A stretch of DNA of 56,328 nt from a virus (taxonomy: Duplodnaviria; Caudoviricetes). The stretch's first letter is position 1; every line of letters begins with the position of its first letter. Below, in pieces: positions 19,724-36,059 of the stretch. The translations under genes and the position numbers were made by a program. Below the pieces are notes generated by a model. The model was not told the origin of the DNA, did no database searches, and saw only the letters and a list, made by a program, of their open reading frames with translations. The DNA lies in the IMG/VR virus record IMGVR_UViG_3300021963_000154, positions 1-56,328 of that record, one strand, 5' to 3'.

Positions 19724-20242
19724 CTACCACCCCGGACATTTCCAGCGTTTTAACGAGGCTTTCGCACGAGGTGCGTCACCGCTTGCATTCTTTACTACAC
19801 CACTCATGCGTGCGCAGAATGAATCTTTGCGCGATCCGCCTTGCGGTTGGGGAGCTTTTAGGTTGCTTCCCGTCTCACGATTATACTTTGCGCGACCCTT
19901 GGCGGTAAGCCCTGCGCCACGCTCAACAGATAATTTTTCACCACGACCAACAGCAAGCGATACGCCGCCTTCTTTCATCTTGGCAGTCTTTGCAGACTCT
20001 TTGAATGCGTCGGCTGTAGGTGCGCCCTCGCTGCCCACCTTGCGCATTTTCTCGCCTGATCCTGCCGCAATGCGCTCACGCTTGGCATGGATGTTGGCAT
20101 ACAGTCCACCGCGCTTCATGCCCTTATCAGCCTTCTCAAATTCCTTGCCCACGCTAGTCGGGATGCCAACCTTCTTGGCAAACTTAGGGCTGTGTGCCAC
20201 TGCTTGCATCAAACGCTTTTGGGCAGGGGATTTGCTTGGCAT
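19724..20242 (-). CDS. Basic virion-region protein (DUF6321-like C-terminus) with two xKxGG motifs
   Basis: MPSKSPAQKRLM.AVAH, MKRGG, GLYANIHAKRER, MKEGG, SFCARMSG...SLKRWKC. Confidence 0.7.
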   Translation of the reverse strand: MPSKSPAQKRLMQAVAHSPKFAKKVGIPTSVGKEFEKADKGMKRGGLYANIHAKRERIAAGSGEKMRKVGSEGAPTADAFKESAKTAKMKEGGVSLAVGRGEKLSVERGAGLTAKGRAKYNRETGSNLKAPQPQGGSRKDSFCARMSGVVKNASGDAPRAKASLKRWKCPGW

Positions 20243-20244
20243 GA

Positions 20245-20976
20245 TTAGTCTGCGTTCTTAATGAGGTAGCCTTCTTGCGAGATGGCAACAGCGCCTGTGC
20301 CTGAGTCAATTTTACATTGCAACTGAATATCGGTTTTTTCCGCAAATGGGCGAGGCATAACACGCAACGCATCATAACTAACCGGAAAAGGTGCTTGCTG
20401 AGTAAGAGTCACAACACCTGTCGGGCTAGTTGTTTTGTTCTGGTATGTTACAAACTTGTTGCCGTTGAGTGATGTATAGATATTCACTCGCTGTAAGAAA
20501 TACGTGAATCCAGCAGGAACAGTGTAAATAGCTGCCTGTGTACGACCTACTCCAGCATTGATCTGTGCGTAAATTACAGTATTTGTGAGATTTTTCAGCG
20601 TCACAACACCAGCAGGGTTTGTGGCACTACCTGCCGTGACTTGCATGCTGTTAATGCGCAAATAAGACTTTACTGTTTGAACGGGTGTTTCGCCATTCAT
20701 AACCAGTGTTTCAGAAATTGGCAGGTAGTTTGCATCCAGTCCGCTAATCAAAATTGATGCGGTATCGCCTGCCGTACCAGCCAAATTCATTTGCGTGGCA
20801 GCTACAGGGTAAGTGTATTGCGTTGCATTTTCCCAAATAGGGATAAAGTCAGTCGCTACAACAGTTTGATAACCATACACGTTGACGGTGGAATGACCCA
20901 TAACCTGACCACGAGCAACCTGTAGGTCAAATGGTTCATACGCACCCTGCCGAGTTGCGGAAGAGTATGTACCCAT
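20245..20976 (-). CDS. Virion structural protein
   Basis: EPFDLQVARGQ..H, IYTVPAG, EKTDIQ; beta-rich; in the head cluster. Confidence 0.6.
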   Translation of the reverse strand: MGTYSSATRQGAYEPFDLQVARGQVMGHSTVNVYGYQTVVATDFIPIWENATQYTYPVAATQMNLAGTAGDTASILISGLDANYLPISETLVMNGETPVQTVKSYLRINSMQVTAGSATNPAGVVTLKNLTNTVIYAQINAGVGRTQAAIYTVPAGFTYFLQRVNIYTSLNGNKFVTYQNKTTSPTGVVTLTQQAPFPVSYDALRVMPRPFAEKTDIQLQCKIDSGTGAVAISQEGYLIKNAD

Positions 20977-21281
20977 TACGCAATTCCCGCCTGTACAACT
21001 TTCATGGTTACTGTGCCAGTGCCAGAATTAACCAGCGTCTTGAGCCCAGTAATAGGGAAATTGATTGCGCCATCTTCATTACCAGTCTTGCTAGTGATGG
21101 TCGCATCATCGAACCATGTAGTAAAACCAGACTCTGGATCGTCATATGTGAACTGAACAGAGTAATTAACAGTGCCAGTCACAATCACCGCAAAGCCAAT
21201 ATTGATGGGCGTACAGTTTGTATTGATGACAATAGGAGTTGTTGAGCCTGCGCCAGTTCGAGAGACCACTTGTACTTTCAT
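20976..21281 (-). CDS. Small virion structural protein
   Basis: Beta-rich 101 aa (NYSVQFTYDDP...VVQAG) coupled to its neighbour. Confidence 0.6.
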   Translation of the reverse strand: MKVQVVSRTGAGSTTPIVINTNCTPINIGFAVIVTGTVNYSVQFTYDDPESGFTTWFDDATITSKTGNEDGAINFPITGLKTLVNSGTGTVTMKVVQAGIA

Positions 21282-21327
21282 GACAATCCTTCAAGAAGGT
21301 GGGGTGACCTAAGTCACCCCGTTCCTA

Positions 21328-22080
21328 TTACCAGCAACCGCCTTTTTTCATCCCTTTGAAGCCAGACTCACCGCCTGTCTTCATCGCACAATGACCGCCG
21401 TCTTTATAGCCAGCAGGTGCTTGCTTGATCGACTTTGTGCCGAGAGGTTTCGTAGGCATCTTAGGACCGCCGTGCATCAAAGTATTCTCATACTTCTTGA
21501 CGCTGCCGCCCTTAGCGTAACCACGACCCTCTAGACCACCAGTCTTGGTGTTTAAGGACTTAACTTGCTTGGCTGTGACCATCTTGGTTTTAGCTTCTTG
21601 AGCAACAGTGTTGCGCTGAATCTTGCCACCAGACTTGTAGCCGGGACCTTCGATGCCGCCAGTCACACGCTTTGGGTTAGGACGAGTTGCCTCGATCCCG
21701 CCGAGCAGACCACCCATCTTCAAGCCCTTGTGAGCCTTGGATGCTGGCTTGCCTTCATGCGCCTTAAGCTCGCTCTTGAGACCACTGATCTCACGCTCTT
21801 CTTTTGCATGCATGGCTTTGCTCTCGACTTCGCCACCTTTCTTGCGCATCATCGGCGCACGTTGAGCCATCGCAGCTTCCATCATTGCTGCGCGTGGATC
21901 AGGACGACGAGCAGGCATTGCACGACGCCCCATAGGAGCAGCAGCAGCCGCCAAAGGTGCTACAGGCATTGCTCCGCCCATAGCCATCTTCTTTGTCTTG
22001 CCGCCTTTCTTCATACCGTTACCGACTTCATCAACTGAAGGCTCAGTTGTATCCATCTTTTCCATGCGTTTGAAACCCAT
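21328..22080 (-). CDS. Very basic low-complexity protein built from about 9 [MYLR][AK]xGG repeats
   Basis: MKKGG, MAMGG, RKKGG, LKMGG, YKSGG, YAKGG, YKDGG, MKTGG, MKKGG; AAGGGG RBS. Confidence 0.75.
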   Translation of the reverse strand: MGFKRMEKMDTTEPSVDEVGNGMKKGGKTKKMAMGGAMPVAPLAAAAAPMGRRAMPARRPDPRAAMMEAAMAQRAPMMRKKGGEVESKAMHAKEEREISGLKSELKAHEGKPASKAHKGLKMGGLLGGIEATRPNPKRVTGGIEGPGYKSGGKIQRNTVAQEAKTKMVTAKQVKSLNTKTGGLEGRGYAKGGSVKKYENTLMHGGPKMPTKPLGTKSIKQAPAGYKDGGHCAMKTGGESGFKGMKKGGCW

Positions 22081-22090
22081 GATTTACCCC

Positions 22091-22834
22091 TTAGGCTTGT
22101 GTGACGCCAAGAGCGCCGGTACGAGTAGCTTGAGGACCAACAGCAATCGCTGGCAAGAGGATGCCCATAACGAGGCGCTTAGCACCATCGGGTGCGCTCG
22201 AAGGAACATATGTTCCACGAACATCGCCAGATGTTGTCGTAGCAGTCGTCGTAACAGCGGCAACAAATGTGCCTGCGTCATCAGCCAATGCACCATCCCA
22301 ACCAGAGCGAGCGATGTAGCCAGCGTTGGTGATACGGACAGGTGCGCCAAGGATATCAGTTGTGCCGACTGCAACGGTCACAACAGGGCTACCAGAGATC
22401 GTGATGCTGCTGATCTGATAGAAAGCCTTCTTGCCGTTGACTGTTGTCGATTGGACAGTACCAGTGGCGATAACTTCGCTCATTGGCTGACCGTAGACAT
22501 CGTAGCCAGAGATAGTGACGTTGCGGCTTGTTGGTGTACCAGCGCCAGTCGTTGTAGCGACAGCACGAGGAACATCAAGCTGAACAACCGTAACACCGTC
22601 AGCACGGACAACCGAAGTCGTGCCAGTACCTGCAGTCAGAGTGACTGTCGATGTGTACACGCTTGCAGTTGCAATGTTGTTTGTTGCTTTGGCGACAGGA
22701 ACGCTGTCCCAAACATAGATGCGACCCAAAGGACCGACACCCAAGCCCATTGGCGAAGGATTGCCAAGAGCCGAATTGAGACCCATGTAGGTCTCTGCTG
22801 TTCCGAGGAACAGATCATCTGAAAATTGTGCCAT
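22091..22834 (-). CDS. Virion structural (decoration-like) protein
   Basis: MAQFSDDLFLG, ISGYDVYGQPMSE, GKKAF, GDVRGTY; just downstream of the capsid gene. Confidence 0.65.
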   Translation of the reverse strand: MAQFSDDLFLGTAETYMGLNSALGNPSPMGLGVGPLGRIYVWDSVPVAKATNNIATASVYTSTVTLTAGTGTTSVVRADGVTVVQLDVPRAVATTTGAGTPTSRNVTISGYDVYGQPMSEVIATGTVQSTTVNGKKAFYQISSITISGSPVVTVAVGTTDILGAPVRITNAGYIARSGWDGALADDAGTFVAAVTTTATTTSGDVRGTYVPSSAPDGAKRLVMGILLPAIAVGPQATRTGALGVTQA

Positions 22835-22879
22835 TTTATTCTCCTGTGGCTTGAACCACTCGGGGATTAATCGAAAATA

Positions 22880-23338
22880 CTAAAGAGCGAATGAAGCATT
22901 CTTTCTGACATTTTCAAGGCCGGGTATTACTTGAATATTACTCGGAACATGAAGTCCAGAAACTTTCTTGCCCTGCAAAGGTACAACATGATCGACGTGC
23001 CATTCAAAACCAAGCATTGCGCTTCTTTTTTTGGCTAACTCGTATGCTTCTTCAATCATCCACAGGTCGTCTTGCGTCAACCATTTTGGAGTGCGCTGAA
23101 GAATCATTGCACGACGCTTTGCCTCATAAGATGCACGCTTGTCTGAATTTTGCGAAAACCATTGACGGTTATATGCGTTCCGAGATTCCGCATTACTCTT
23201 GCGATTTTTTGCAAGAATCTCAGAACGTTTTTCAGGGTTAGCCTCAGCCCATGCTTTCGCACGAGCCTTGGTAAGCTCACGATTACGGAGATACCATTCA
23301 CGCTTTAAGTGTTTGGCATTTTCCATATCGCGAGCCAT
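22880..23338 (-). CDS. HNH homing endonuclease directly after the major capsid gene
   Basis: KRRAMILQRTPKWL...WHVDHVVPLQGKKVSGLHVPSNIQV...N..K; same family as 934..1521. Confidence 0.9.
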   Translation of the reverse strand: MARDMENAKHLKREWYLRNRELTKARAKAWAEANPEKRSEILAKNRKSNAESRNAYNRQWFSQNSDKRASYEAKRRAMILQRTPKWLTQDDLWMIEEAYELAKKRSAMLGFEWHVDHVVPLQGKKVSGLHVPSNIQVIPGLENVRKNASFAL

Positions 23339-23353
23339 TTTTACTAATCCTCG

Positions 23354-24268: not shown

Positions 24269-24281
24269 TTTTTAGCCCTCC

Positions 24282-25568: not shown

Positions 25569-25860
25569 GATTAATTCCTTGTTCAACAATTACCCAGTCT
25601 TCAGACAACATATCTGTTTGACTAGCGAGCCAGCCGGGAAGCATTGCTTTTCGACCAGATGAGTTGGTTGTGTACATGTCAATGTGTGGAAGTATCTCGC
25701 CTGATAAAAAACCCGCTTTGTAATAAGCTGATCCTTCAGCACAGTCGACGTTAGACGTGCCAGACACAAGGATTAACCACATCCCTTTTCCGTTCCATCC
25801 TTGTCTGGCTACTTTTTCACCTGATTTCAATGCTTTGATTGCGTCACCAAAATCCATCAT
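25561..25860 (-). CDS. tad2: DUF2829 protein, Tad2-like anti-defence nucleotide sponge
   Basis: MDFGDAIKALKSGEKVARQGWNGKGMW...PHIDM...GWLASQTDMLSEDW, the hallmark DUF2829 motifs. Confidence 0.8.
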   Translation of the reverse strand: MMDFGDAIKALKSGEKVARQGWNGKGMWLILVSGTSNVDCAEGSAYYKAGFLSGEILPHIDMYTTNSSGRKAMLPGWLASQTDMLSEDWVIVEQGINHG

Positions 25861-26819
25861 TGATTCCTTTTGTTTTCACGATCCCAAGCGGCGTACTTTT
25901 TAATCGCCTTGGCTCGTAGTTCTGGGTTGTCCCACATGCCTGCCTCTTTCATCGCTGCGACACGATCTGGAGAGATTCTGAACTCGTTTGCACGCCCTGA
26001 TGGGGCAGACTCACGACCAGAACCCGTCATGCGAGGACGAGCCGTAGCAGGGCGCTGTGGTGCAGATTCTGCACGATGCGGCAGATACTTCGCCACACGA
26101 TCATCAAGCTCTTCCCAATAGTCTGGGCTTGAAGGGTCATAACCCTCGTCAGTCAGCTTCTTATCCAGACGCTGAGCGATTTCTGAGTCCATGTCCTTGG
26201 CTTGTGGGTCGTACCACGGGTTGCGCTCCATCCAAGACGCCGCATTGCGCTGTACCGATGGGTCTGGCACATTCATTGTGGGCTTTGGAGGCTGCGACAT
26301 CTGCCGTGTAGCCTGATCCTTGATGTTCTTGAGTGACTCAACCTTACGCTGAGACTCATACATCATCTCTTGGGCTTTCACGACCGCATCGCCGTCTTGA
26401 TTGGCGACCGCTTCACGCATCTTCATCTTTGCGTACTCGATCTGCACCTCAGTGTCGTCAATTGCCTTGTCAACACGCGCTAATTCAGCGCCAGAAGTGC
26501 GCTTCTCAAGGTGAGCCAGACGCTCAGCAAGTTGCTGGTTCTGGGTCTTGAGAGCATTGATCAGGTGATTGGACTCTTTGGTCTTCTCACGATGAATTTG
26601 CTTCTTGAGCTTGCGCTCTTCGCGTCGAGCAGCACGAATCTGCTCACGATCGGGGTCAGAATCAAGTCCGTCGTTGGCATCATTGACCTCAACCTCGCCA
26701 CCTTCGGCAAGTTCAGGTTTCTGCTCAACTTCAGGAGCTTCTCCTTCCTCCAAGTGCGCAACCGCTGAGCCATCCTGCTCCTCAGCGACTTGCATTTCCA
26801 TTTTATCTGTTGGGTTCAT
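25857..26819 (-). CDS. Capsid scaffolding protein
   Basis: Acidic N-terminus, long coiled coil, W.ERNPWY, GYDP.S.DYWEELD.R, C-terminal basic helix; between portal and capsid genes. Confidence 0.75.
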   Translation of the reverse strand: MNPTDKMEMQVAEEQDGSAVAHLEEGEAPEVEQKPELAEGGEVEVNDANDGLDSDPDREQIRAARREERKLKKQIHREKTKESNHLINALKTQNQQLAERLAHLEKRTSGAELARVDKAIDDTEVQIEYAKMKMREAVANQDGDAVVKAQEMMYESQRKVESLKNIKDQATRQMSQPPKPTMNVPDPSVQRNAASWMERNPWYDPQAKDMDSEIAQRLDKKLTDEGYDPSSPDYWEELDDRVAKYLPHRAESAPQRPATARPRMTGSGRESAPSGRANEFRISPDRVAAMKEAGMWDNPELRAKAIKKYAAWDRENKRNQ

Positions 26820-27226: not shown

Positions 27227-27237
27227 ACTTACTCCTT

Positions 27238-27278: not shown

Positions 27279-27286
27279 GGGTGGTA

Positions 27287-27478
27287 CTACAAATCTTCGT
27301 CCTTCTCCGTCAAAATGTCGTCGAGTATGTCTAGAGCTTCACCTAAGCCCTGATACTGACCGACCATACGGTGGTATGACTCAATATTGATGGCGTAACC
27401 GTCGGCAAGAGACAGCGCTAACTCCAAGCGCCGCTCTTTGAGCCTGCCGATCAGGTCGCTTACGGGATTAACGCCCAC
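27287..27478 (-). CDS. Small conserved head-cluster protein
   Basis: LADG..NIESYHRMVGQYQGL motif, between portal and GroES-like genes. Confidence 0.7.
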   Translation of the reverse strand: MGVNPVSDLIGRLKERRLELALSLADGYAINIESYHRMVGQYQGLGEALDILDDILTEKDEDL

Positions 27479-27752
27479 GACCTGCTGCTTTGCGCATTGG
27501 AACTGCTACAGCGATAGTGATCCCCATGCCTTTTTTGGCGACATTGCCACCCTTTTTATAGGTTGCAATCTTTGTGCCGCTCGATTTCTCAAGTGGTGGG
27601 GGTGCTGAGCCACGAGCTGGTAGGTTTGCCACCTTGCTCTCGCTCATTACAGACCCGCCGTTAGCGTATTTCTGGATAACGGACTTGCCTTTTGCCATCG
27701 GAACGGTTTCGCCCATTGCCATGCGTTTGTGTTGCGAGATTGCGTCAGACAT
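27468..27752 (-). CDS. Small basic protein with YANGG and YKKGG motifs
   Basis: MSDAISQHKRMAMG...; AAGGAG RBS inside the portal 3' end. Confidence 0.65.
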   Translation of the reverse strand: MSDAISQHKRMAMGETVPMAKGKSVIQKYANGGSVMSESKVANLPARGSAPPPLEKSSGTKIATYKKGGNVAKKGMGITIAVAVPMRKAAGRGR

Positions 27753-30300
27753 TTGGTGCTCCTTGCGGGGGTACTTGAGGTTGAGATTGCTGCATTGCAG
27801 CCTGTTGCTGCTGTATTGCCATTTCTTGCTGCTGTTGCGCTTGAAGTTGCCGTCTTTGTGCTTCATGTTGCTGTTCAAGCGTCAGCAAATTGATGTCATG
27901 AGTGAGTTCTGCCGCTTTGATCTGCTGGTCAGCGACATTCTTCTCCTGCTTGGCTTGGGTGTCAGCCTGTAATTTAGCGCCATCAAGCTGTAATCTAGCC
28001 TGATCGTATGCCGCCTTACGCTGAGTTTCAGCCATCTGTGTCTGCACAAGCGCTTGAACCGACGGATCAGTAGGCTGTTGCTGCGCTTTAAGTTGCTGGA
28101 TGGTCTGAATCATTTGTTGCATCACAGGCATTACGCCAGAGAACTGCTGCTGGCTGTCCATGTGGACATTCTGTGAGCTTGCCGCGAGGAGCTTCTGCGC
28201 CTCTTGGATGATAGGTTGTACCTTCAGGATGTCAAACGGCTCGCTCAGGGCGTCAGAGGCGTATGCATCCATCGCATTGAGATACCAGAGCGTCAAGTGT
28301 TGCTTCAGATGCTCAAGCATTGCGGGGATGAACACAGGAGCCATGATCGGGCTTGCGCCGTACATCGGGTCTTTAGCGTAATCCAAGTGAACCTGAAGGT
28401 GTGCCAAGTGTTCTTGGCTGGGGAATGCACCGACTGGCTTGCCAAGCGTCATGGCGACATTCTCAAGCGCAGGGTTCATCTCTTTAACATCTTGCGGATC
28501 AGGTAGCACTTCATTGATATCAGGAAGCTTGATCTGCTTAAGAATTCGCTTCTCAACAGCCAAGCGATTGTATAAGTCTGGATTCGCCTGAGCGCGTGCG
28601 GCGAGGGCTTGTACCTGAGCATATCGTTGGCTCTCCGCAAAGATGTGCGGGTCAGAGACAGGCACAACATCAGAGTTCTTCTCAAAGTCCTTGGAGCTTA
28701 CGCCAAGTTCTTGACTCATCTCATCAGGATTGTCGTCCAAGTACCAACGGTTCAGGCGACCAATGATCTTCAGAACTCGTGCTTGGCTAGTATGTAAGCG
28801 TGCATGGATGGCTGAGAATACCGCCGCGCCTTGCTCAATCAACGCCTGAGTCGTTCCAACGGGGGCGTTGGAGGTAACATCCGCAATCTTCTCTTCGGCG
28901 GTCGTGACGACCCCTTTAGCCGCTCCTGTGAGCCATCCCAACAACTGGAACAGCACAGGGCTTGGCTGATTGAACGGCATCGGCATGGCAATCTTGCGCA
29001 CATCGTCCACGCCCGGTGCGCCCTCGATCTCAGTTACCTGAGTGGGTTCGACCACAATGCTCTGACCAGATATCTTGCCGCCCTTGAGCTTGAGCATCGT
29101 GGGGCTGTTGTTTATATGAGCAGAATCAAGCAAAGCCCGCAGAGCGCCAGTAAGAGCAGCAGACAGACCGCCAATAAGATGGGGCAGACCCACTGCATAA
29201 GCACCTCGCCAAGGAATGAATTTAAACTCAACGATCCAGTCGAGCTTGCTCATCAGAGCATCGCCGTCTTCCCAGTTACGGTACAGACCCACGACTTCGC
29301 TGCTCAGCTCATCGATCATCAGGATGTATGGAGCGCGTTCGCCTTTGGACTTTTGGTCGTCCTCTAGCTCCATGAATGTGTAGATGTGGAACACACGACG
29401 GATGCCATCGATGTTATCGGCTTCGCTCTTGCGACCCTCAATCTTGTTGTTTGCCTTCTCAGGCTTGGACTCTTCAGGCTCTTGACTGGCACGGTAGATG
29501 TCCAGATCGATGTATAGACCAGACGAGACACGAGCCTCAAAGTCTTCTTGCGTGATGTCATTGACTTCCGTCACACGACTGGCGGTGTAGAAGTTAGCTG
29601 CAGCAAACGGTAGGTACACATTGTCGATCGGCAGGAACTCAGCGCATGGGCGCTTCTTGCCCTCGTCGTACCATATCTTCATGTACTGTGAGCCACCGAG
29701 CGGGAGCTGGGTGAGGAGCTGCTCTTCCTCGTCACGGTACTCTTCGATCTTCTCAGTCAACTGATAGTTCATGTAGTCGCGCTTACGCTCGGCGACCATC
29801 GTCTTCTCTTCAGTCACTTCGCCCAGAATCTTGGAGCGAACGGGACCGTCAGGCGGAAACAGCTCCTTGATTGCACGGGCAGCAAAGTCCACGCAACCCT
29901 CAGCCATGATCGGATGCACAACCTTGGATGCGCCCATGAAGGATGCACCGCCGGGGGCGTCTTGCCCTAGCCCTGTACGGCGCAGTCCTTCCTCGTACTG
30001 CTTGTCACGCCCCTCACGGGCTGACTTGTCTTTCTCTACTAGCTCGATGTACTTGATCGCAATTTTGGATAGATCATACGAATCGATCGACTCTGCGAGG
30101 TTCTCGTAAAAGTCGGGTGACTCGTCCGGTCCGAGCAAATCCTCATCCAGACGCACGATAGCTGAGCCGTCGTCTTGCTCCTCTACATCAGCCTGATCGA
30201 ACAGATCGACCTCAGCCGTGTTAGCAAACTCGCTGTCGCCATGCGCTTCGGGTGCTACGAATCGGTTGTAGTCTTGCGGGATCGGCATTTGAGTAGCCAT
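27745..30300 (-). CDS. Portal protein (podoviral, long Q-rich C-terminal barrel)
   Basis: 851 aa; VVHPIMAE..V.F.ARA..ELFP..GPV, YMNYQL, LPLGGS..K, PVGTT.AL.E.G. Confidence 0.88.
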   Translation of the reverse strand: MATQMPIPQDYNRFVAPEAHGDSEFANTAEVDLFDQADVEEQDDGSAIVRLDEDLLGPDESPDFYENLAESIDSYDLSKIAIKYIELVEKDKSAREGRDKQYEEGLRRTGLGQDAPGGASFMGASKVVHPIMAEGCVDFAARAIKELFPPDGPVRSKILGEVTEEKTMVAERKRDYMNYQLTEKIEEYRDEEEQLLTQLPLGGSQYMKIWYDEGKKRPCAEFLPIDNVYLPFAAANFYTASRVTEVNDITQEDFEARVSSGLYIDLDIYRASQEPEESKPEKANNKIEGRKSEADNIDGIRRVFHIYTFMELEDDQKSKGERAPYILMIDELSSEVVGLYRNWEDGDALMSKLDWIVEFKFIPWRGAYAVGLPHLIGGLSAALTGALRALLDSAHINNSPTMLKLKGGKISGQSIVVEPTQVTEIEGAPGVDDVRKIAMPMPFNQPSPVLFQLLGWLTGAAKGVVTTAEEKIADVTSNAPVGTTQALIEQGAAVFSAIHARLHTSQARVLKIIGRLNRWYLDDNPDEMSQELGVSSKDFEKNSDVVPVSDPHIFAESQRYAQVQALAARAQANPDLYNRLAVEKRILKQIKLPDINEVLPDPQDVKEMNPALENVAMTLGKPVGAFPSQEHLAHLQVHLDYAKDPMYGASPIMAPVFIPAMLEHLKQHLTLWYLNAMDAYASDALSEPFDILKVQPIIQEAQKLLAASSQNVHMDSQQQFSGVMPVMQQMIQTIQQLKAQQQPTDPSVQALVQTQMAETQRKAAYDQARLQLDGAKLQADTQAKQEKNVADQQIKAAELTHDINLLTLEQQHEAQRRQLQAQQQQEMAIQQQQAAMQQSQPQVPPQGAPNV

Positions 30301-30302
30301 AG

Positions 30303-33300
30303 TTAGCCTTTAGATAGTGCTAGACGCATAGCGTCGATGTTGTTGGCGAATTGTACTTTGCCGCCGCGCTTCATGTGAATGCCTTCCTTAAACGCCTCAC
30401 GCATCGCTGGAGTGATCTCCATGTAATGCAGGGGTTCTGAGCCGATGCCAAGGAACTTCAACGCTTCGGCATATGTATTAAATTCTTTGGTGTCACGACC
30501 TTGTCCTGTGTAGGCATAATACTTGCCGACATCTTTAAAAATCCTGTCCGTAGAAGGCTCAGTTTGCACAGAGGTCATACCAACATTTGCGCCATACTTC
30601 TTGCCAAACTTCTTGAGGTAGCCGGGATATATCTCGTCGTAATACTTCTTCATGCCCTTGCCGCCGACCTGAAGATCGAGACCAGTCAAAGACTTGACCA
30701 CTCCAACGCCAAGCTCGTCTGCAATGTCAGCATCGTATTGTGCTTTGCCTTCGTCCCCAACAATTTTCTTAGCAACATCTTTGCCGACAAGACCAGACAG
30801 CTCGTTCTCATCCAGTCTCTCTTTTGAGAACACCTCTTTGCCGCCCTTGATGGCAGACATGCTGTATGTGCCGTCATCGTTTTTGTTGTAGTCAATCCGA
30901 TCAATCTGCTTGCTCAGGTCAAACCGTTCAGCCACCCTTGCACCAGTTGGCAGCGCCACACGGTCGTAACCGCCGTCAATCGCTTCTTTGATGGCACGCT
31001 TGAGGGCTAGTTGATACCAGTCGTCTTTGAAGGGGGCGTCAGGTACGCCAGCAATTTTTTGGCGTTTTGCCCAGCTTTCATATTCAGTGGATAAATTATC
31101 CAATCGTTGACCACGAATATTTTCATTTGTTCCTTGCTCTGCACGCTCCCAACGAGAAAGGAAATCTTTCAAGTAGTCTTTTTGTCCAGAGCTTAATTTG
31201 TCACCATAATCCAAGAGCAACTCATCGGCGCTCATGGCTGGCATGTCAATATCGTTCTTGTACCCCTGCTCCCGCCCTGCCTGATGCCAGTCAGACTGCA
31301 CCTCATCGACGAGCAGCGTCTTCTTGCCATCCGTCACACGGTCGCTCATGCGCAGGTGAGCGAGGGGGTTGGCTTCGTCCCAATGGGAGGATTGGTAGTT
31401 GTTATAGCCGCCCATACCGTCACGAGCTTCTCTCTCTGTGCGGAACATTGCTGTGTCACCATCTTTGTATGTAACACGCCAATATCCAGAATCTGTTTTA
31501 CTAAGTGTGGCTCCCTCTAAAGGCTTGACGGGAAGCGTCAGCACAATCTCACGGTAGTTTTCACCGCCGGGAAGTTGGTATTGTTGAAACTTTGTAATGT
31601 TGGTGTTGGCGTATTCATCAACTATTTTTTTTGCGTCAGGATTGCCTTGTCTAGCCAGTGTTACAACATTATTAGCATCATCCTCAGACATTCCTCTTTG
31701 CATGGCAAATTTATTGATAGACGGCTTATCTTGATACACCGCCTCACCCAACTGAATCTTGTTCTTGGCGATGTAGTCCTGCACCTCAGCCGCTGTCACA
31801 TCCTTCTTGCCCTTGAGCCACTCATCCAAGCCCATAGCGTTGATCTCATCGGGGCGGACATTCTCTTGCTTCAAGAGGTCATTCAGGAACGCCTGACCGC
31901 TTCCTGACTTGCGCGGAAGGTTCAGTGCGGCAGCCTCGGTCGGTGAGTAGAAGCCTTGTGGATTGGCGGGGGCGAGGACTCGTGGGGTCACATCCTTGAT
32001 GGACATCCCAATCTGAGGAATGCGACCTGACTCATACCCTAGCCTGACCGCATCGTCGATCTTAGAGACTATCGGGGCGACCTTACCAACCACATCGCCA
32101 GTTACCGATCCAAGCGTCGGATAGCCCTGTGTAACCCCACGCTGGGCATTAAAGAAGTCGTTGGGGAACTGACCGACATCACGAGCAATCCCTTCCTTGA
32201 TCGTGCTCAGACCTCGTGGGACGCGATGTAGCCTTCCGGTCTGACCGATGATACCCATCGTTGGGTCGAGACCGTAGCTCGATCCTATGACCGCCTGTGC
32301 AGCCTCATCCGCAGCACCTAGCGCCTTCAGTGTTCCGCCAAGGAATGTGCTTCCCATCAATGCCGCCATTGCGTTCTGACCAAAGTCACCAGCGGTCTTG
32401 GGGCTGGTTACATAGCCCTTCCTCGCGGCTTGATCTTCAATGAAGTCCTTGCCCGACATCCAGCTAGGCTTGATCCCTGCTTCGAGCTGCTTCTCGACCT
32501 TATCGATCTCGATGTCATGCATCGTCTTTGGGAACGGCACTGACTTGCCAGCCGCATCAACCATCGGAACGCCGAACTCTGTGTAGGCTTGCGACGATGG
32601 CTTCCTGTTGAGGCTGAACAGGTCTTTATTCTGCTCATACATCTCGGGCGATGTGATTGCGTCACCCGCATCAAGCGACAAACGAGCTGGGTCTGCCATG
32701 CGTCGTGCGTTGGCGATCTGCTCATTGACATCGGTCGTGGGCTTGAGCGTTGGCTGGTTAGCCAGCTCCAAGCGAATCTGATCCATGACCGCCTGATCTA
32801 CGATCTCGTCGGGATCGCCGCCATCCTTCATGTGGACAGCGCCGCCTTGTGCGTACAGATCGGGAAGTTGAACCATTTTTCTTCTTATTTCTTGTTGCGC
32901 AACATCATCCCAATACTGTTCAGGCTTGACCTTGTTGTCAGTCAGCGCCATTTCTTTTCTTATCGCATCAATGTATTCCGCTTGCGATCGGCGTGGGAAT
33001 GGCTCACGCAACTCAGCCCTCGGCTGAAACTCAACCAAAGACGAAGTAATACCACTATCGGCAAGAGAGCGGCTACGGTGTCTGCCTTCATGACCAGTAA
33101 TCCACGGCAACTGAACTTCGCCCGCAACGCCCTTATTTACTAACAGATATGGAACCTGATCAAATCCACCAACACCTTGCAAATATTTGACATAGTCCTC
33201 TGTAGACATATCGTGTTTGTCTTTATTACCACCTACCTTGGTAGTAGGATTTAACTCAAGCGGTCTTGCAAACTTCTCAAAGTCCGCAGGGTTCATCGTC

Positions 33301-34352
33301 ATCAGCGCACGGGCATTATCCCCACTGAAGGCGCTGCGCAATGCATCCTGCGTGTACATCTCGCCCAGTCTGGGGATTTCGTCTGCGGCACGCTGAACTC
33401 TTCGCTCACCATACGAGCCTTCACGGTTCTTGATGTATTCAGCCAGCTCGGAGATACCACTGCGGGTCATGATGCTGGGGGCTTCGACCTTGGGAAGCAT
33501 CCTGTTCGCCAGCTTGCGACCTGCACCACCACCAGCCATATGGACAGCGCCGCCGCTCTTCATGCCAAGCTGACGACGGACTTCCTCAAACGGAACTTGC
33601 GCCTGCTCGAACACGGCAGGAGGCTTGACTGCTCCGCCTTCTGCCTTCGTGATGTCAGGATTGGATGTGTCGTATGTGCCTTCGTTTCCGATGGCGGACT
33701 TAACTGCATTGGGGTTATACACACCAAGGTTCTTCACACCTTTTTCTTTGGCGTAAAAAGAATCATGCCCAAGCTCTTTGATTGACTCTTGGATTTCTGG
33801 GTTTTCAATTGACGTCCAGTTGCTTTCAGTCTTTGGGTTGCCTAAATGTTTTATGTACTCAACTATTGCATCGTCATCAATATCATTTGGTCGATGCTCA
33901 ATTAAATATGACCTTAGATTTTCAATATGCTTTGGGTTTTCATAATCGAATGGGTTCTTTGCCTGAACATACATTGGGTATATTGCAGGTCTTGCGAGTG
34001 GATCTGGGGTAATCGTTCCAGAAAATTTGTTTGCAAATTCATAGCTTGGAGTCATGAATAATGCATTTGCTGTCGGGTCTGAATACGAACCCATTTTGTT
34101 TAAATCGTCTGGTAGTTTAAAACTTGAGATGCCTTCGTCTGGAGCTGTTTTTACATAGCCCATGTCATCATCATAATAATGAGGGCTGGCATGATACATC
34201 CGATCTTTGATTGCGCTTCCTTCAAGCATCTTACCCAGATTCGCATCACGCTCAGCTTTAGGCATCACGCCCCGTGCGCGATCGACCGCCATCTCCATCT
34301 TCATCTGGGATGGAGTCTTGACCTTGGGTGCTTTAATTCCTGCCATAGCCAC
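30303..34352 (-). CDS. Polyvalent multidomain protein: ART-like, ParB-like and large EVQSDW domains
   Basis: MYHAS...FMTP...YPMYV..KNPFD...GHD...YNPNAVKSAIGN.G.YD..NPDI (ART-PolyVal-like); GHEGRHR (ParB/Srx-like); LPGGENYRE, SHW, DEVQSDWHQ, PDAPFK; domains separated by xAxGG/xKxGG linkers. Confidence 0.7.
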   Translation of the reverse strand: MAMAGIKAPKVKTPSQMKMEMAVDRARGVMPKAERDANLGKMLEGSAIKDRMYHASPHYYDDDMGYVKTAPDEGISSFKLPDDLNKMGSYSDPTANALFMTPSYEFANKFSGTITPDPLARPAIYPMYVQAKNPFDYENPKHIENLRSYLIEHRPNDIDDDAIVEYIKHLGNPKTESNWTSIENPEIQESIKELGHDSFYAKEKGVKNLGVYNPNAVKSAIGNEGTYDTSNPDITKAEGGAVKPPAVFEQAQVPFEEVRRQLGMKSGGAVHMAGGGAGRKLANRMLPKVEAPSIMTRSGISELAEYIKNREGSYGERRVQRAADEIPRLGEMYTQDALRSAFSGDNARALMTMNPADFEKFARPLELNPTTKVGGNKDKHDMSTEDYVKYLQGVGGFDQVPYLLVNKGVAGEVQLPWITGHEGRHRSRSLADSGITSSLVEFQPRAELREPFPRRSQAEYIDAIRKEMALTDNKVKPEQYWDDVAQQEIRRKMVQLPDLYAQGGAVHMKDGGDPDEIVDQAVMDQIRLELANQPTLKPTTDVNEQIANARRMADPARLSLDAGDAITSPEMYEQNKDLFSLNRKPSSQAYTEFGVPMVDAAGKSVPFPKTMHDIEIDKVEKQLEAGIKPSWMSGKDFIEDQAARKGYVTSPKTAGDFGQNAMAALMGSTFLGGTLKALGAADEAAQAVIGSSYGLDPTMGIIGQTGRLHRVPRGLSTIKEGIARDVGQFPNDFFNAQRGVTQGYPTLGSVTGDVVGKVAPIVSKIDDAVRLGYESGRIPQIGMSIKDVTPRVLAPANPQGFYSPTEAAALNLPRKSGSGQAFLNDLLKQENVRPDEINAMGLDEWLKGKKDVTAAEVQDYIAKNKIQLGEAVYQDKPSINKFAMQRGMSEDDANNVVTLARQGNPDAKKIVDEYANTNITKFQQYQLPGGENYREIVLTLPVKPLEGATLSKTDSGYWRVTYKDGDTAMFRTEREARDGMGGYNNYQSSHWDEANPLAHLRMSDRVTDGKKTLLVDEVQSDWHQAGREQGYKNDIDMPAMSADELLLDYGDKLSSGQKDYLKDFLSRWERAEQGTNENIRGQRLDNLSTEYESWAKRQKIAGVPDAPFKDDWYQLALKRAIKEAIDGGYDRVALPTGARVAERFDLSKQIDRIDYNKNDDGTYSMSAIKGGKEVFSKERLDENELSGLVGKDVAKKIVGDEGKAQYDADIADELGVGVVKSLTGLDLQVGGKGMKKYYDEIYPGYLKKFGKKYGANVGMTSVQTEPSTDRIFKDVGKYYAYTGQGRDTKEFNTYAEALKFLGIGSEPLHYMEITPAMREAFKEGIHMKRGGKVQFANNIDAMRLALSKG

Positions 34353-36057
34353 GCTCCATCATCTCGATCAGCATCTCTTCGGGAGATGGGTGAACAGCGC
34401 CGCCATGCTTCTTGACGACCTCTAAGCTCTCAGGCTTAATGATCTTGAACCACTCGTCGCGTCCGCCTGTTCCTGTCGCTGGGCGCTGGTAACCCCAGAA
34501 CCCGCCAGCCTCGGTGATGCCGGGCATCATGCGATCCATCGGCTGCTTGTTCGCTGACAGGAGGTCGTATATCTCCTCCCCAGTCATGCCTGTGTCCGCA
34601 GGTAAGCGGTTCCAGTACCGACGCATCTGGTTGACTTGCTCAGCCGTGTATGGCGTCTCGTCCATCCGCAGGAGCTTCTCTTCAGGGATGTCGTAACGAT
34701 TCACCATCGGCGGACCCTCCAACCCCAACTGACCCAGCTTATCCGAGCCGCGCTTGGTTGCGTACAAAGAGTCGGTCGTCACATGCAGGGGGCGCTCGTT
34801 GGTTGGCTTAATCTTCACAGGGCTGCCGTGCATGATACGCATCTTCCCGCCACCTGCCATTCGCTGCGGCTGGTTCATCAGCGCCAAGTTCGCCAAGTCC
34901 ATGTCCAGCATTCTGTATGCCTCAGGATCGGTAATCGTGTTCTTGATCGCCTCTTCGGGGGCGGATGTAACCATGCCACCGTCTGCCTTGCCGATCCTTG
35001 CCTCGCCCATCATGACTAAGTCGCGTGCCGTCTCAGGACTGACGCCGAGCCTACGAGCCGTATCCATTATCTGGTCGGCAATCATCTCTAGCTTGGGCGA
35101 TCCGATCGGTGTCGTCACCCCTGTCTGACCTGAGAACGCGCCCCATGTCCGAGCCTGCGCAGGGACAGACTCAATGCCGAGCTGCTCAGCGATCTTCTCT
35201 CGCCACCAAGGAGCGAGCTGTGTCATCTCAGGGTTGCTCACGCTTGCACCGAAGTTCTTCGATGTGCGTGTGTCGCCAAGACCAACAGCCCGCGACCAGT
35301 GCGCGTCACCAACTGGCGTGCGTGTCTGGAATCCAGTGTCAGGAACGCCGCTCGACTCAATGTAGAGCGGTACTTTCGGCGTGGTCATGGTGAACTCGCC
35401 GCTCTTCAGGTATTTGTCCATCGGCTCGGCTTGAGCGGTTCGGTGGTAGACATGACCCGGCACACCGATGATGTCCTCCGCCACTCCCGCAGCCTTGCGC
35501 CCCTTCTGAGGGATCGCTACGGACTCCATGAACTCGGGCCAGCGACCCTGCTTGTTCAGGAAGTAAGCCGCCGATCCTCGTGGAATCTCCGTCATGACCT
35601 CACTGCCCGGCGATGCCATCCCAGATAGGATGTTCATCTTTGTGTACTCTTCGATCGCCTTGTCTTTGCCCATCAGCTCAACCATGCGCTGGTAGAACGG
35701 ATCCATCACATACCACGGATCCATCCCACGCACGAGCTCTGGGAACTTCGTCGCCTCGGCGTTCACATCCAGAATGCGCTGCACATTCTTGGGTGTCATG
35801 ATCTTCTCTGCTGCCTCTGACCCTCTTGGGTTGGCTGCCGCACCGGGGAGCGCCCCCGGCAAGTTCCCCTCTCTGCTATTGACAATGTCCTGAAGGTCAG
35901 CCCTCGTGACACCGAACAGCCGCTTGAGGTTTGGGCTTTCTGGTGCAACCCTCGATGCAGCCTCTGCCGCTATCTTTGCTGGATTGTCGTAGATACCCGG
36001 AAACGCTATGCGCTCAGGTGATTTAACAGTGGGTCTTACCTTTGGTGGTTTTGCCAT
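34333..36057 (-). CDS. Polyvalent protein: HhH-glycosylase-like domain plus small ART-like domain
   Basis: WY...ASP...PKV...VGDAHW...IAEQLGI...AQARTW; then HGSP...LHVTTDSLYA; KADGG, MAGGG and KKHGG linkers. Confidence 0.55.
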   Translation of the reverse strand: MAKPPKVRPTVKSPERIAFPGIYDNPAKIAAEAASRVAPESPNLKRLFGVTRADLQDIVNSREGNLPGALPGAAANPRGSEAAEKIMTPKNVQRILDVNAEATKFPELVRGMDPWYVMDPFYQRMVELMGKDKAIEEYTKMNILSGMASPGSEVMTEIPRGSAAYFLNKQGRWPEFMESVAIPQKGRKAAGVAEDIIGVPGHVYHRTAQAEPMDKYLKSGEFTMTTPKVPLYIESSGVPDTGFQTRTPVGDAHWSRAVGLGDTRTSKNFGASVSNPEMTQLAPWWREKIAEQLGIESVPAQARTWGAFSGQTGVTTPIGSPKLEMIADQIMDTARRLGVSPETARDLVMMGEARIGKADGGMVTSAPEEAIKNTITDPEAYRMLDMDLANLALMNQPQRMAGGGKMRIMHGSPVKIKPTNERPLHVTTDSLYATKRGSDKLGQLGLEGPPMVNRYDIPEEKLLRMDETPYTAEQVNQMRRYWNRLPADTGMTGEEIYDLLSANKQPMDRMMPGITEAGGFWGYQRPATGTGGRDEWFKIIKPESLEVVKKHGGAVHPSPEEMLIEMMERGYGRN

Positions 36058-36059
36058 GA

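What the first reader, a model, noticed from the sequence alone, without database searches (positions are those of the whole stretch)
19724..36057. Genome-wide di-glycine motif [MYLKRA]-[AK]-x-G-G as a candidate virion cargo-loading/processing code
Seen: about 25 copies by eye in seven proteins. 576-aa: KADGG, MAGGG, KKHGG. 1349-aa: KAEGG, MKSGG, MAGGG, YAQGG, MKDGG, MKRGG. 27468-27752: YANGG, YKKGG. Scaffold: LAEGG. 250-aa: about 9. 172-aa: MKRGG, MKEGG. 1389-aa ejection protein: AAQGG, LAQGG. In the multidomain proteins the motif sits at domain boundaries and is often followed by a short helix (IDAMRLAL, MDQIRLEL, PEEMLIEM). I did not notice it in early or replication proteins. Established: adenovirus protease and ASFV pS273R cleave viral precursors at GG-containing sites. 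Inference: either a polyprotein cleavage site or a docking tag that packs enzymatic cargo into the head for injection. No obvious protease gene is visible, which favours a docking tag or a cryptic/host protease.
Basis: partly seen in the sequence, partly recalled or inferred. Interest (0 to 1): 0.85.

Follow-up and report, generated by a model that had tools for sequence, protein, structure and literature searches.

The report
Conserved di-glycine tag on phage cargo proteins
A short peptide motif with two glycines really does mark a special set of head-associated "cargo" proteins in this phage and its many uncultured relatives; it looks most like a loading tag, though a cutting site is not excluded.

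Summary
The core is [M/Y/F]-[A/K]-x-G-G-x-V. The window has 18 copies against 1.4 expected from shuffles, all in late proteins and none in 39 early ORFs. In 81 related loci there are 591 copies against 43 expected.

The motif is confined to accessory head-module proteins:
- the polyvalent proteins between terminase and portal (576 and 1349 aa);
- a 94-aa protein after the portal;
- a disordered, basic 250-aa protein, where the Gly pairs of five motif copies are invariant;
- a 172-aa fusion of three modules, with the motif exactly at both junctions.

Terminase and capsid never carry it, portal and scaffold only rarely.

New here: in polyvalent proteins the motif pairs with an amphipathic helix (D-x-M-R-x-E-L) 4 or 8 residues downstream. 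Together they form a portable C-terminal tail, found in 61 of 61 such proteins and on at least 29 unrelated upstream domains.

No peptidase family matched any of 65 ORFs. Codon use and upstream sequence rule out a nucleotide-level signal.

Best reading (about 0.42): a multivalent encapsidation or assembly tag. Main rival (about 0.27): a maturation cleavage site. No description was found in four literature searches. Virion mass spectrometry would decide.

The parts
34333..36063 (-). 576-aa polyvalent-type protein, the first gene after the large terminase. Motif copies: KADGG 34975-34989, MAGGG 34846-34860, KKHGG 34399-34413.
   Evidence: No Pfam, PHROG or PDB match. Only residues about 351-425, the junction cassette, are shared with 26 loci.
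34846..34989 (-). Internal junction cassette of the 576-aa protein: GG motif, helical stretch, then a second GG motif.
   Evidence: This is the most widely conserved part of the protein among relatives.
34336..34413 (-). C-terminal tail of the 576-aa protein: GG-x-V, then a helix of the EEM-x-IEMMER type, then a basic end.
   Evidence: The same tail type ends the upstream of two polyvalent genes in other loci.
30303..34352 (-). 1349-aa polyvalent protein directly upstream of the portal. ART-PolyVal covers residues 92-226, and residues about 700-1326 form a conserved domain of unknown fold. Six motif copies.
33525..33647 (-). Junction 1 after the ART domain: KAEGG 33633-33647, MKSGG 33549-33563 and MAGGG 33525-33539. 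The last two form a tandem pair 8 residues apart.
32754..32855 (-). Junction 2: tandem YAQGG 32841-32855 and MKDGG 32817-32831, followed by the helix D-Q-I-R-L-E-L.
30306..30374 (-). C-terminal tail of the 1349-aa protein: MKRGG (30360-30374), then K-V, an 8-residue spacing, the helix D-A-M-R-L-A-L, and a basic end.
   Evidence: The region has pLDDT below 50 in the AF2 model.
34290..34310 (-). Helix-type element near the N-terminus of the 1349-aa protein (residues 15-21), with no GG before it.
   Evidence: The position depends on the start codon chosen.
27468..27752 (-). 94-aa basic protein (pI 10.7) directly after the portal. It has YANGG 27654-27668 and YKKGG 27546-27560, then a hydrophobic stretch and a basic end.
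   Evidence: The ATG at 27752 fits the alignment of relatives. There is no tblastn hit in isolated phages.
21328..22080 (-). 250-aa basic (pI 10.2), disordered, motif-rich protein with 9 copies at residues 23, 32, 79, 120, 148, 188, 225, 233 and 244.
   Evidence: The Gly pairs of five motif copies (residues 23, 32, 188 and 225, and one at alignment columns 270-271) are invariant or at least 90% conserved in 60 homologues, and those at 79 and 148 are at least 90% conserved. AF2 gives mean pLDDT 50.4 and pTM 0.13. 1,447 unnamed relatives were found.
19724..20242 (-). 172-aa basic (pI 10.5) fusion of three small modules. MKRGG 20105-20119 and MKEGG 19964-19978 lie exactly at the two junctions. 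The C-terminal module is DUF6321.
27745..30300 (-). Portal protein (851 aa). Context only: it has no motif here, but the portals of three relatives that lack the 94-aa gene end with the motif.
25857..26819 (-). Scaffold-like protein (320 aa). Its single LAEGG is probably background.
1518..5687 (-). 1389-aa ejection-type protein. AAQGG and LAQGG lie in a Gly-rich region (12.9% Gly, 28 GG dipeptides) and are probably background.

Best explanation
The motif is the core of a short linear motif, [K/G]-[M/Y/F]-[A/K]-x-G-G-x-V. It lies in disordered linkers and tails of a defined set of accessory head-module proteins. The carriers belong to an uncultured clade of podophages distantly related to the HTVC023P, CRP-901 and Caulobacter RW group.

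In the polyvalent (cargo) proteins encoded between terminase and portal, the motif is joined to an amphipathic helix (D-x-M-R/K-x-E/A-L) that starts 4 or 8 residues after GG, followed by a basic end. Together they form a portable tail in which the last GG lies 10-21 residues before the C-terminus.

Most likely this cassette is an encapsidation or assembly signal. The GG core would act as a multivalent 'sticker' and the tail as a directional docking peptide. They would recruit polyvalent enzymes and small basic internal proteins into the procapsid interior or a portal-proximal core. The proteins would then be packaged and leave with the DNA.

Shown: the motif, its selection at protein level, its distribution, its position, its disorder and its portability.
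Inferred: that the carriers are inside the head, that the motif binds something, and what that something is (capsid interior, scaffold, portal, other motif-bearing proteins, or DNA). Cleavage after docking is not excluded.
For: 1. Specific distribution. In 81 loci the motif is confined to orthologues of the 576-aa (26 motifs in 9), 1349-aa (164 in 53), 250-aa (125 in 32) and 172-aa (46 in 36) proteins, and to ORFs without a window homologue (220 in 386). There are 0 in TerL (69), MCP (47), GroES-like (68), p182 (58), p195 (51) and adaptor (33).
2. Protein-level selection. The Gly codons are a GGC/GGT mix, and GGAGG makes up 1.6% of 426 motif contexts against 5.2% of other GG dipeptides.
3. Universal C-terminal position. 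61 of 61 distinct complete ORFs of 500 aa or more directly upstream of the portal have GG-x-[VIAT] 10-21 residues before the end, and 61 of 61 have K/R in the last 4 residues. 17 of the 61 have no internal strict copy at all. A profile of the tail finds 239 representatives in 1.84 billion proteins, and 141 of the best 150 have GG 8-24 residues from the C-terminus.
4. Portability. The 250 residues before the tail fall into 29 BLAST-unrelated families among 131 proteins. These carry polyvalent-protein domains: ART-PolyVal in 4 of 29, LPD23 in 3, PcfJ in 2, and PBECR5, RadC and GNAT in 1 each.
5. Fixed polarity and discrete spacing. 47 of 47 C-terminal helices have GG upstream and none downstream. 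The spacing is 4 residues (20 cases) or 8 residues (30 cases) among 58. G15, G16 and M27 are invariant in alignment A4.
6. Multivalency in disorder. The 250-aa family keeps its motif Gly pairs invariant or at least 90% conserved while the rest averages 26% column identity. AF2 gives pLDDT 50.4 and no fold. Successive copies peak at 8-9 residues apart (57 of 276).
7. Interior location hint. In L072, L074 and L075, which lack the 94-aa gene, the portal ends with the motif 5 residues before its C-terminus.
8. No peptidase family matched any of 65 window ORFs at E<=0.01. The capsid gene has a separate scaffold-like neighbour.
Against: - No receptor is identified.
- Caulobacter phage RW shares portal (51% identity), capsid (77%), scaffold, p182, p195 and GroES-like proteins, yet has no motif enrichment and lacks all the carrier genes. 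A receptor among the shared proteins would therefore have to be clade-specific in detail.
- Several copies inside one polypeptide are not needed for simple tagging.
- In the 172-aa protein the motif sits exactly where other phages have stop and start codons between separate genes. That is what a processing site would look like.
- GG with an upstream hydrophobic residue is a classical viral protease site (PMC4246237, passages read).
- That the carriers are virion proteins is inferred from gene position and domain types only. There is no proteome of any member.
- 10 of 20 N-terminal helices and 17 of 21 internal regex hits have no GG nearby, so helix and GG are not always coupled.
Confidence: 0.42

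Rival explanations
1. Maturation cleavage site. The carriers are polyproteins or precursors cut at or next to GG by a cryptic phage protease or a host protease. This would release enzyme domains, small basic internal peptides and the terminal helices.
For: - The motif lies at domain boundaries.
- It lies exactly at the two junctions of the 172-aa protein, whose three modules are separate genes without the motif in DSL-LC05, S-CBP4 and MW202483.
- Hydrophobic-x-GG sites, sites 8 residues apart in pTP, and basic core-protein substrates are known for the adenovirus protease (PMC4246237, passages).
- The 250-aa protein with 9 copies would give small basic peptides.
- The residue right after GG is variable.
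Against: - No peptidase family matched any of 65 window ORFs or any of 29 tail-bearing representatives.
- The conserved domain of the polyvalent protein has no protease-like fold match; the best Foldseek hit is E=0.027, GNAT-like.
- H65 and C67 of p182 are not kept in CRP-901 or HTVC023P, and p195 has no invariant His, Cys or Asp.
- 17 of 61 giant multidomain proteins have no internal copy, so domains are not systematically separated.
- Copies lie 1-2 residues from a C-terminus and 5 residues from a portal end, where cutting achieves little.
- Conserved positions lie on both sides of GG, with fixed spacing to the helix.
- The hydrophobic residue is three residues before GG, not two as at adenovirus sites.
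Confidence: 0.27
2. DNA-binding or DNA-condensing motif of internal, histone-like head proteins. Lys contacts phosphate, the Gly pair lets the backbone approach, and M/Y/F acts as a wedge. This would tether cargo to the packaged genome.
For: - The small carriers are very basic (pI 10.2, 10.5 and 10.7) and disordered.
- The flanks are rich in K and G.
- A copy sits at the tip of the portal C-terminus, which points into the DNA-filled interior.
Against: - Position 1 is Ala as often as Lys.
- The polyvalent carriers are acidic overall (pI 5.7 and 6.7).
- Cargo must enter the procapsid before DNA does, so DNA binding cannot by itself load it. This is inference from established packaging biology.
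Confidence: 0.12
3. Passive flexible hinge or relic of gene fusion. The M-[A/K] would be left over from the starts of once-separate genes, with no specific partner.
For: - In the 172-aa protein the motif Met aligns with the start Met of the separate genes in other phages, whose N-termini read M-A-K or M-S-K.
- Met is the commonest first residue (45%).
Against: - Y and F make up 54% of first residues and cannot be start relics.
- Both Gly and the V at +2 are about 9x enriched.
- The motif Gly pairs are among the invariant columns of a family with 26% mean identity.
- A strong Shine-Dalgarno match precedes only 4% of M-type copies, against 32% of real starts and 2% of other internal Met.
- A plain linker would not keep eight positions.
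Confidence: 0.07
4. Repeat unit of a folded beta-rich structure, such as a solenoid or spiral, rather than a linear motif.
For: Runs of 9-residue units occur in some relatives, and the 8-9-residue spacing is the commonest (57 of 276).
Against: - AF2 with 60 sequences predicts no strand and no confident region in the 250-aa protein (pLDDT 50.4, pTM 0.13).
- Most copies are isolated or 35-47 residues apart.
- The tail region is below pLDDT 50.
Confidence: 0.04

Closest known systems
Capsid targeting sequence of phage T4 internal proteins
   Same: A short conserved peptide is the only thing shared by a diverse set of anti-defence proteins, and it directs them into the prohead interior (PMC3012670, passages read). 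Here too one short cassette is shared by at least 29 unrelated upstream domains.
   Different: The T4 signal is N-terminal, single-copy, aimed at a scaffolding core, and removed by a known prohead protease (the last point is recalled, not read). Here the cassette is C-terminal or internal, often multi-copy, built on GG, and no protease gene was found.
Adenovirus protease sites (M/I/L)XGG|X and (M/I/L)XGX|G
   Same: A hydrophobic residue precedes a Gly pair. The substrates include basic core proteins and a scaffold. pTP has two sites 8 residues apart (PMC4246237, passages read).
   Different: The register differs: here the hydrophobic residue is three residues before GG, and it is M/Y/F rather than M/I/L. 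V at +2 is conserved. No clan-CE or any other peptidase family matched in the genome.
Polyvalent proteins of phages and conjugative elements (Iyer et al. 2017, PMC5512222)
   Same: The large carriers are members. ART-PolyVal is present in the window protein, and LPD23, PBECR5, RadC and PcfJ in tail-bearing relatives. They are encoded beside head genes.
   Different: The paper proposes processing by zincin-like metallopeptidase domains (abstract and passages). No such domain matched here. A word search of its main text found 'glycine' 0 times, 'GG motif' 0 times and 'linker' 0 times. Its supplements could not be seen.
C-terminal cargo-loading peptides of encapsulins and encapsulation peptides of bacterial microcompartments (recalled, no call)
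   Same: Short terminal peptides (Gly plus hydrophobic residues, or an amphipathic helix on a flexible linker) load unrelated enzymes into a protein shell. Encapsulin shells have the same fold class as this phage's capsid protein (Phage_capsid_4).
   Different: The sequences differ. The motif is multi-copy and also internal. The shell here is a DNA-filled virus head. Binding was not shown.
Demarcation motifs of polymorphic toxins such as VENN (recalled, no call)
   Same: A short conserved motif marks the border between a conserved part and swappable effector domains.
   Different: Those motifs precede the variable domain. Here the cassette follows variable domains and ends the protein.

Membership tests
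Short linear motif in a disordered region | At most about 10 residues with a few fixed positions and unconserved flanks | tested here: met
   A logo of 409 unique contexts shows information only at positions -1 to +6. Enrichments are M 7.7x, Y 7.4x, F 3.8x, G about 9x each and V 9x.
Short linear motif in a disordered region | Lies in regions predicted to be disordered | tested here: met
   The 250-aa protein has mean pLDDT 50.4 and pTM 0.13, with no residue at 70 or above. The tail of the 1349-aa protein is below 50.
Short linear motif in a disordered region | Occurs in otherwise unrelated proteins | tested here: met
   There are four carrier families plus 29 unrelated upstream domains.
Polyvalent proteins (Iyer et al. 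2017) | A large multidomain protein of a phage or plasmid carrying effector domains of the described set | tested here: met
   ART-PolyVal is found in the 1349-aa protein: E=8.9e-07 at 30.2 bits for the whole protein (cut-off 31.2), and E=6.8e-08 at 33.8 bits for residues 1-235 alone. Four ART stretches occur in L067. LPD23, PBECR5, RadC and PcfJ occur in relatives.
Polyvalent proteins (Iyer et al. 2017) | Delivered with the DNA (packaged in the virion) | not testable with these tools
   Gene position between terminase and portal is the only evidence.
Substrate site of an adenain-type (GG-specific) viral cysteine protease | Hydrophobic residue two positions before GG (P4), with GG at P2-P1 | tested here: not met
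   The hydrophobic residue is three positions before GG in all copies by definition of the enriched pattern. The consensus is taken from PMC4246237.
Substrate site of an adenain-type (GG-specific) viral cysteine protease | A cognate protease encoded by the virus | tested here: not met
   Of 65 window ORFs scanned against Pfam at E<=0.01, 0 matched a peptidase family. 20 ORFs were scanned against PHROGs, also with none. A novel fold cannot be excluded.
Substrate site of an adenain-type (GG-specific) viral cysteine protease | Cleavage observed | not testable with these tools
   No proteome of any member was found.
T4-type capsid targeting sequence | N-terminal, about 10 residues, followed by a prohead-protease site | tested here: not met
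   The last copy lies within 35 residues of the C-terminus in 59% of 195 carriers, against 34 +/- 3% for random placement. It is 61 of 61 for polyvalent proteins.
T4-type capsid targeting sequence | Portable between unrelated cargo proteins | tested here: met
   29 unrelated upstream families among 131 proteins.
Encapsulin-type C-terminal cargo-loading peptide | A short peptide at the C-terminus of cargo, with a shell protein of the HK97 fold class | tested here: met
   Position. Capsid protein: Phage_capsid_4 at E=1.6e-10 and Mu-like gpT.
Encapsulin-type C-terminal cargo-loading peptide | The peptide binds the inner face of the shell | not testable with these tools
   Needs procapsid structures or binding assays.

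The most novel reading that the evidence does not exclude
The tail (GG-x-V, a 4- or 8-residue spacer, an amphipathic D-x-M-R-x-E-L helix and a basic end; the last GG lies 10-21 residues before the C-terminus) is a protease-independent, transferable address label. It would load any protein into the heads of a large uncultured phage clade. The bare [M/Y/F]-[A/K]-x-G-G core would be a multivalent sticker. Through it the portal end, the 94-aa protein, the 250-aa hub and the polyvalent enzymes would condense into an internal core that is ejected with the DNA. That would be a cargo-loading code for tailed phages, analogous to encapsulin targeting peptides.
Probability: 0.25. Interest if true: 0.8.

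Novelty: new variant of a known kind. Interest (0 to 1): 0.62.

Why it matters
How large polyvalent anti-defence enzymes get into phage heads is largely unknown outside T4. Here a single short cassette marks every such protein of a widespread clade. The clade shows up as 283 portal-related stretches in IMG/VR, 1,447 clusters of the 250-aa family and 239 representative tail-bearing proteins. The cassette therefore gives a concrete, mutable handle on the question.

If it is a loading tag, it could be used to package chosen proteins into phage particles. If it is a cleavage site, it implies a GG-type maturation protease of unknown kind in tailed phages. Either result is directly testable with virion mass spectrometry and reporter fusions.

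Tried and rejected
1. Nucleotide-level signal. I asked whether GG is encoded as a Shine-Dalgarno-like GGAGG, or whether the Met marks an internal start. Rejected. GGAGG is found in 1.6% of 426 motif contexts against 5.2% of other GG dipeptides. A strong SD match precedes 4% of 200 M-type copies, against 32% of 758 gene starts.

2. Hidden protease.
- Pfam on 65 window ORFs and PHROGs on 20 gave no peptidase.
- PDB sequence searches with the 1349- and 576-aa proteins gave nothing.
- The protein atlas search returned only unnamed viral clusters.
- AF2 of the conserved 700-residue C-terminal part gave pLDDT 63.8. Foldseek found no match at E<=0.001; the best was a GNAT-like NatD at E=0.027.
- p182, p195 and the scaffold have no conserved catalytic-type His/Cys/Asp set.

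3. Structural repeat. Rejected for the monomer.

4. Clade-specific receptor among the genes next to the carriers. The gene after the capsid gene is a variable, decoration-like protein of several unrelated types, so it is not a universal partner.

5. A complex prediction of capsid protein plus scaffold plus the 34-residue tail returned 'no answer' (score 0.15, mark 0.32). This is neither for nor against binding.

6. Isolated phages carrying the system. tblastn found none for the 94-aa protein. Only distant partial hits turned up for the conserved domain: Dolichospermum phage Dfl-JY45, HTVC028P, MW202675 and Pseudoalteromonas PH1.

7. Literature. Searches found no description of the motif or tail. 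These searches cover only the held library. Supplements were closed and not consulted, and those of PMC5512222 may list linker motifs.

Caveats:
- ORFs in the loci come from my own simple caller: plus strand only, first ATG/GTG/TTG. N-terminal positions are therefore approximate.
- The loci are related to each other. Counts were made on unique sequence contexts where stated.

Full report
**What the window is**

The window is the whole held genome, 56,328 bp, of a podovirus-like phage. Nearly all genes are on the minus strand. The late genes, in order, are:

| Gene | Coordinates | Evidence |
|---|---|---|
| Small terminase (Sf6-type) | 37486-37989 | |
| Large terminase | 36060-37523 | |
| 576-aa protein | 34333-36063 | |
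| 1349-aa protein with an ART-PolyVal domain | 30303-34352 | |
| Portal | 27745-30300 | |
| 94-aa protein | 27468-27752 | |
| 63-aa protein | 27287-27478 | |
| GroES-like protein | 26816-27226 | |
| Scaffold-like protein | 25857-26819 | |
| Tad2-like protein | 25561-25860 | |
| p182 and p195 | 25041-25589; 24282-24869 | |
| Capsid protein | 23354-24268 | |
| Endonuclease VII-like insert | 22880-23338 | |
| Decoration-like p247 | 22091-22834 | |
| 250-aa protein | 21328-22080 | |
| p101 and p243 | 20976-21281; 20245-20976 | |
| 172-aa protein | 19724-20242 | |
| Adaptor and tail genes | from 18665 downwards | |
| Lysis genes | about 10321-11744 | |
| 1389-aa ejection-type protein | 1518-5687 | |

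The nearest records by capsid protein are an uncultured phage MW202545 (87% identity), Caulobacter phages RW, GB2A, RLK and KcrB (77%), and then Roseobacter CRP-901/902 and Pelagibacter HTVC023P (about 42%). Papers on that group were seen only as search listings and abstract starts.

Yes.

They give 1.4 +/- 1.2 for [MY][AK]xGG against 17 observed. No shuffle out of 2000 reached either value.
- Leaving out the 250-aa protein, 11 strict copies remain against 1.4 expected.
- The 39 early ORFs (5,960 aa) have none, although they hold 27 GG dipeptides.

I fetched 80 portal-anchored loci from IMG/VR (60-96% portal identity) and added MW202545. Together they hold 591 strict copies in 1,192 ORFs, against 43.2 +/- 7.0 in 50 shuffles.

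From 409 unique contexts the logo is [K/G]-[M/Y/F]-[A/K]-x-G-G-x-V, with nothing conserved outside. I also tested each position while fixing the others. M, Y and F are enriched 7.7x, 7.4x and 3.8x. K and A fill the second place. Each Gly is about 9x enriched, and V at +2 is 9x. By contrast K, L, R and A at the first place are near background.

**Where it occurs**

By orthologue group:

| Group | Orthologues | Motifs |
|---|---|---|
| 576-aa | 9 | 26 |
| 1349-aa | 53 | 164 |
| 250-aa | 32 | 125 |
| 172-aa | 36 | 46 |
| ORFs without a window homologue | 386 | 220 |
| Portal | 82 | 3 |
| Scaffold | 64 | 5 |
| Large terminase | 69 | 0 |
| Capsid | 47 | 0 |
| GroES-like | 68 | 0 |
| p182 | 58 | 0 |
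| p195 | 51 | 0 |
| Adaptor | 33 | 0 |

The ORFs without a window homologue are mostly divergent polyvalent proteins, the 94-aa family and motif-rich proteins.

The gene map of all loci shows one conserved plan. After the terminase come one or two giant proteins (0-8 copies), then the portal. A protein of about 93 aa follows (2-3 copies), and then the core head genes with none. After the capsid gene come a variable decoration-like gene, a motif-rich protein (2-12 copies), another variable gene, a 172-aa-like protein (1-3 copies) and the adaptor.

Caulobacter phage RW and Roseobacter CRP-901 share the core head genes. They lack all carrier genes and show no enrichment. The system is therefore an accessory layer of one clade.

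That clade is large and unnamed:
- 283 portal-related stretches in IMG/VR;
- 1,447 clusters of the 250-aa family in the 5.8-billion-protein collection, none with an informative name.

**It is a protein-level linear motif in disordered sequence**

- The Gly codons are mixed GGC/GGT, and GGAGG is rarer than at other GG dipeptides.
- Shine-Dalgarno-like sequence does not precede the Met-type copies (4% against 32% at real starts).
- The 250-aa family keeps the Gly pairs of five motif copies invariant and two more at 90% or above, while mean column identity is only 26%.
- AF2 with 60 sequences gives pLDDT 50.4, pTM 0.13 and two short helices.
- The tail of the 1349-aa protein is below pLDDT 50.
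- The small carriers are very basic: pI 10.2, 10.5 and 10.7.

**A second element, and a portable tail**

- Every one of 61 distinct complete ORFs of 500 aa or more directly upstream of a portal ends the same way. GG-x-[VIAT] lies 10-21 residues before the stop (60 of 61 have V or I), and K/R lies within the last four residues. 52 of the 61 match a helix pattern.
- Only 31 of the 61 have the strict first two residues, so the GG-x-V part is the constant one.
- In an alignment of 30 tails, G15, G16 and M27 are invariant, and V18 and R28 are at least 90% conserved.
- The helix starts 4 residues (20 cases) or 8 residues (30 cases) after GG among 58 cases.
- All 47 C-terminal helices have GG upstream and none downstream.

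A profile of the tail, searched against 1.84 billion representative proteins, found 239 hits at E<=0.001. 141 of the best 150 have GG 8-24 residues from the C-terminus. The 250 residues before the tail fall into 29 BLAST-unrelated families among 131 proteins.

Pfam finds in 29 representatives the hallmark domains of polyvalent proteins:
- ART-PolyVal in 4;
- LPD23 in 3;
- PcfJ in 2;
- PBECR5, RadC and GNAT in 1 each;
- no peptidase.

The helix also occurs near the N-terminus of many of these proteins, often without GG. That result depends on my choice of start codons.

**Junctions**

In the 172-aa protein three modules are joined by MKRGG and MKEGG. The same modules are separate small genes without the motif in phage DSL-LC05, cyanophage S-CBP4 and MW202483. 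The motif Met aligns with their start Met.

The first module also heads 'virion structural proteins' of jumbo phages.

In the 1349-aa protein the copies follow the ART domain and precede the conserved C-terminal domain. However, 17 of 61 giant proteins have no internal copy.

**Is there a protease?**

None was found.

- 65 ORFs were scanned against Pfam and 20 against PHROGs.
- PDB sequence searches gave nothing.
- The conserved domain was folded and compared; the best match was GNAT-like at E=0.027.
- The unknown core head proteins have no conserved catalytic residues.

The capsid protein has a separate scaffold-like neighbour. In well-studied podoviruses this goes with protease-free assembly; that point is established knowledge, not tested here. 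A protease of unknown fold, or a host enzyme, remains possible.

**Weighing the readings**

A cleavage site is suggested by:
- the junction positions;
- the classical look of a hydrophobic residue followed by GG (adenovirus consensus and two pTP sites 8 residues apart; PMC4246237, passages);
- the many copies in a basic protein.

A docking or assembly tag is suggested by:
- the universal C-terminal position;
- the fixed polarity and the discrete 4- or 8-residue spacing to the helix, which point to one directional epitope;
- conservation on both sides of GG;
- tandem copies typical of avidity;
- giant proteins with only the terminal copy;
- copies so close to an end that cutting would be pointless, including the portal C-terminus in the three loci that lack the 94-aa gene;
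- the missing protease.

The T4 capsid targeting sequence is the nearest functional precedent (PMC3012670, passages). I put the tag reading at about 0.42, cleavage at 0.27, DNA binding at 0.12, a passive hinge or fusion relic at 0.07 and a folded repeat at 0.04.

**Novelty**

Four literature searches, plus a word search of the polyvalent-protein paper, found no description of the motif or tail. Supplements could not be read.

The carriers are members of a known class, the polyvalent proteins. Targeting peptides and GG cleavage sites are known kinds. This cassette, its C-terminal rule and its multivalent use in a podophage clade appear to be new.

Noticed in passing
window 25561-25860 (-): A Tad2-like (Thoeris anti-defence 2) domain protein (PF11195, E=2e-24) sits inside the head module between the scaffold-like gene and p182. 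The orthologue table lists no orthologue in the 81 related loci.
   Followed up: partly
window 23354-24268 (-); alignment A2: The capsid protein is extraordinarily conserved: 88-98% identity and 93% mean column identity across 25 sequences. In the same loci the portal falls to 60% and the scaffold to 41%.
   Followed up: partly
window 26816-27226 (-): A GroES-like (Cpn10) gene sits next to the scaffold-like gene. It is conserved in 68 loci and is also annotated in Caulobacter RW, Roseobacter CRP-901, Pelagibacter HTVC023P and phage DSL-LC05.
   Followed up: no
L072 10001-12577, L074 5293-7866, L075 4086-6659: These portals end with the motif (MKQGG) 5 residues before the stop. These are the loci where no 94-aa gene follows the portal.
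   Followed up: partly
window 19724-20242 (-): The first 43 residues of the 172-aa protein match the N-termini of 'virion structural proteins' and hypothetical proteins of phiKZ-like and Rak2-like jumbo phages (140 records). The other two modules are widespread small genes in cyanophages and pelagiphages (621 records).
   Followed up: partly
window 30306-32405 (-); alignment A1: The conserved C-terminal domain of the polyvalent protein has invariant E286, H341 and D372 (alignment numbering). No fold match was found. Distant homologues occur in Dolichospermum phage Dfl-JY45 and Pelagibacter phage HTVC028P. It looks like an enzyme of unknown kind.
   Followed up: partly
window 21328-21351 and 19724-19750 (-); relatives: The 250-aa and 172-aa families end with a conserved Cys one to a few residues from the stop, often next to Trp or Tyr. 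This was not explained.
   Followed up: no
window 34336-34413 and 30306-30374 (-): The two polyvalent genes of one genome carry different tail types: the EEM-x-IEMMER type on the upstream gene and the DAMR-x-EL type on the portal-proximal gene. The same split is seen in L009, L022, L029 and L065.
   Followed up: partly
window 22880-23338 (-) and 10814-11371 (-): An endonuclease VII-like ORF lies between the capsid and decoration genes, with one orthologue in L012. An HNH-like ORF lies in the lysis region. Both look like homing-type inserts.
   Followed up: no
window 5684-6178 (-): A GNAT acetyltransferase gene lies directly upstream of the 1389-aa ejection-type protein. CRP-901 also has a GNAT gene among its tail and ejection genes.
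   Followed up: no
window 49707-52789: The only strand switch in the genome. A YdaS/Cro-like ORF lies on the minus strand, facing four plus-strand ORFs. This may be a regulatory switch region.
   Followed up: no
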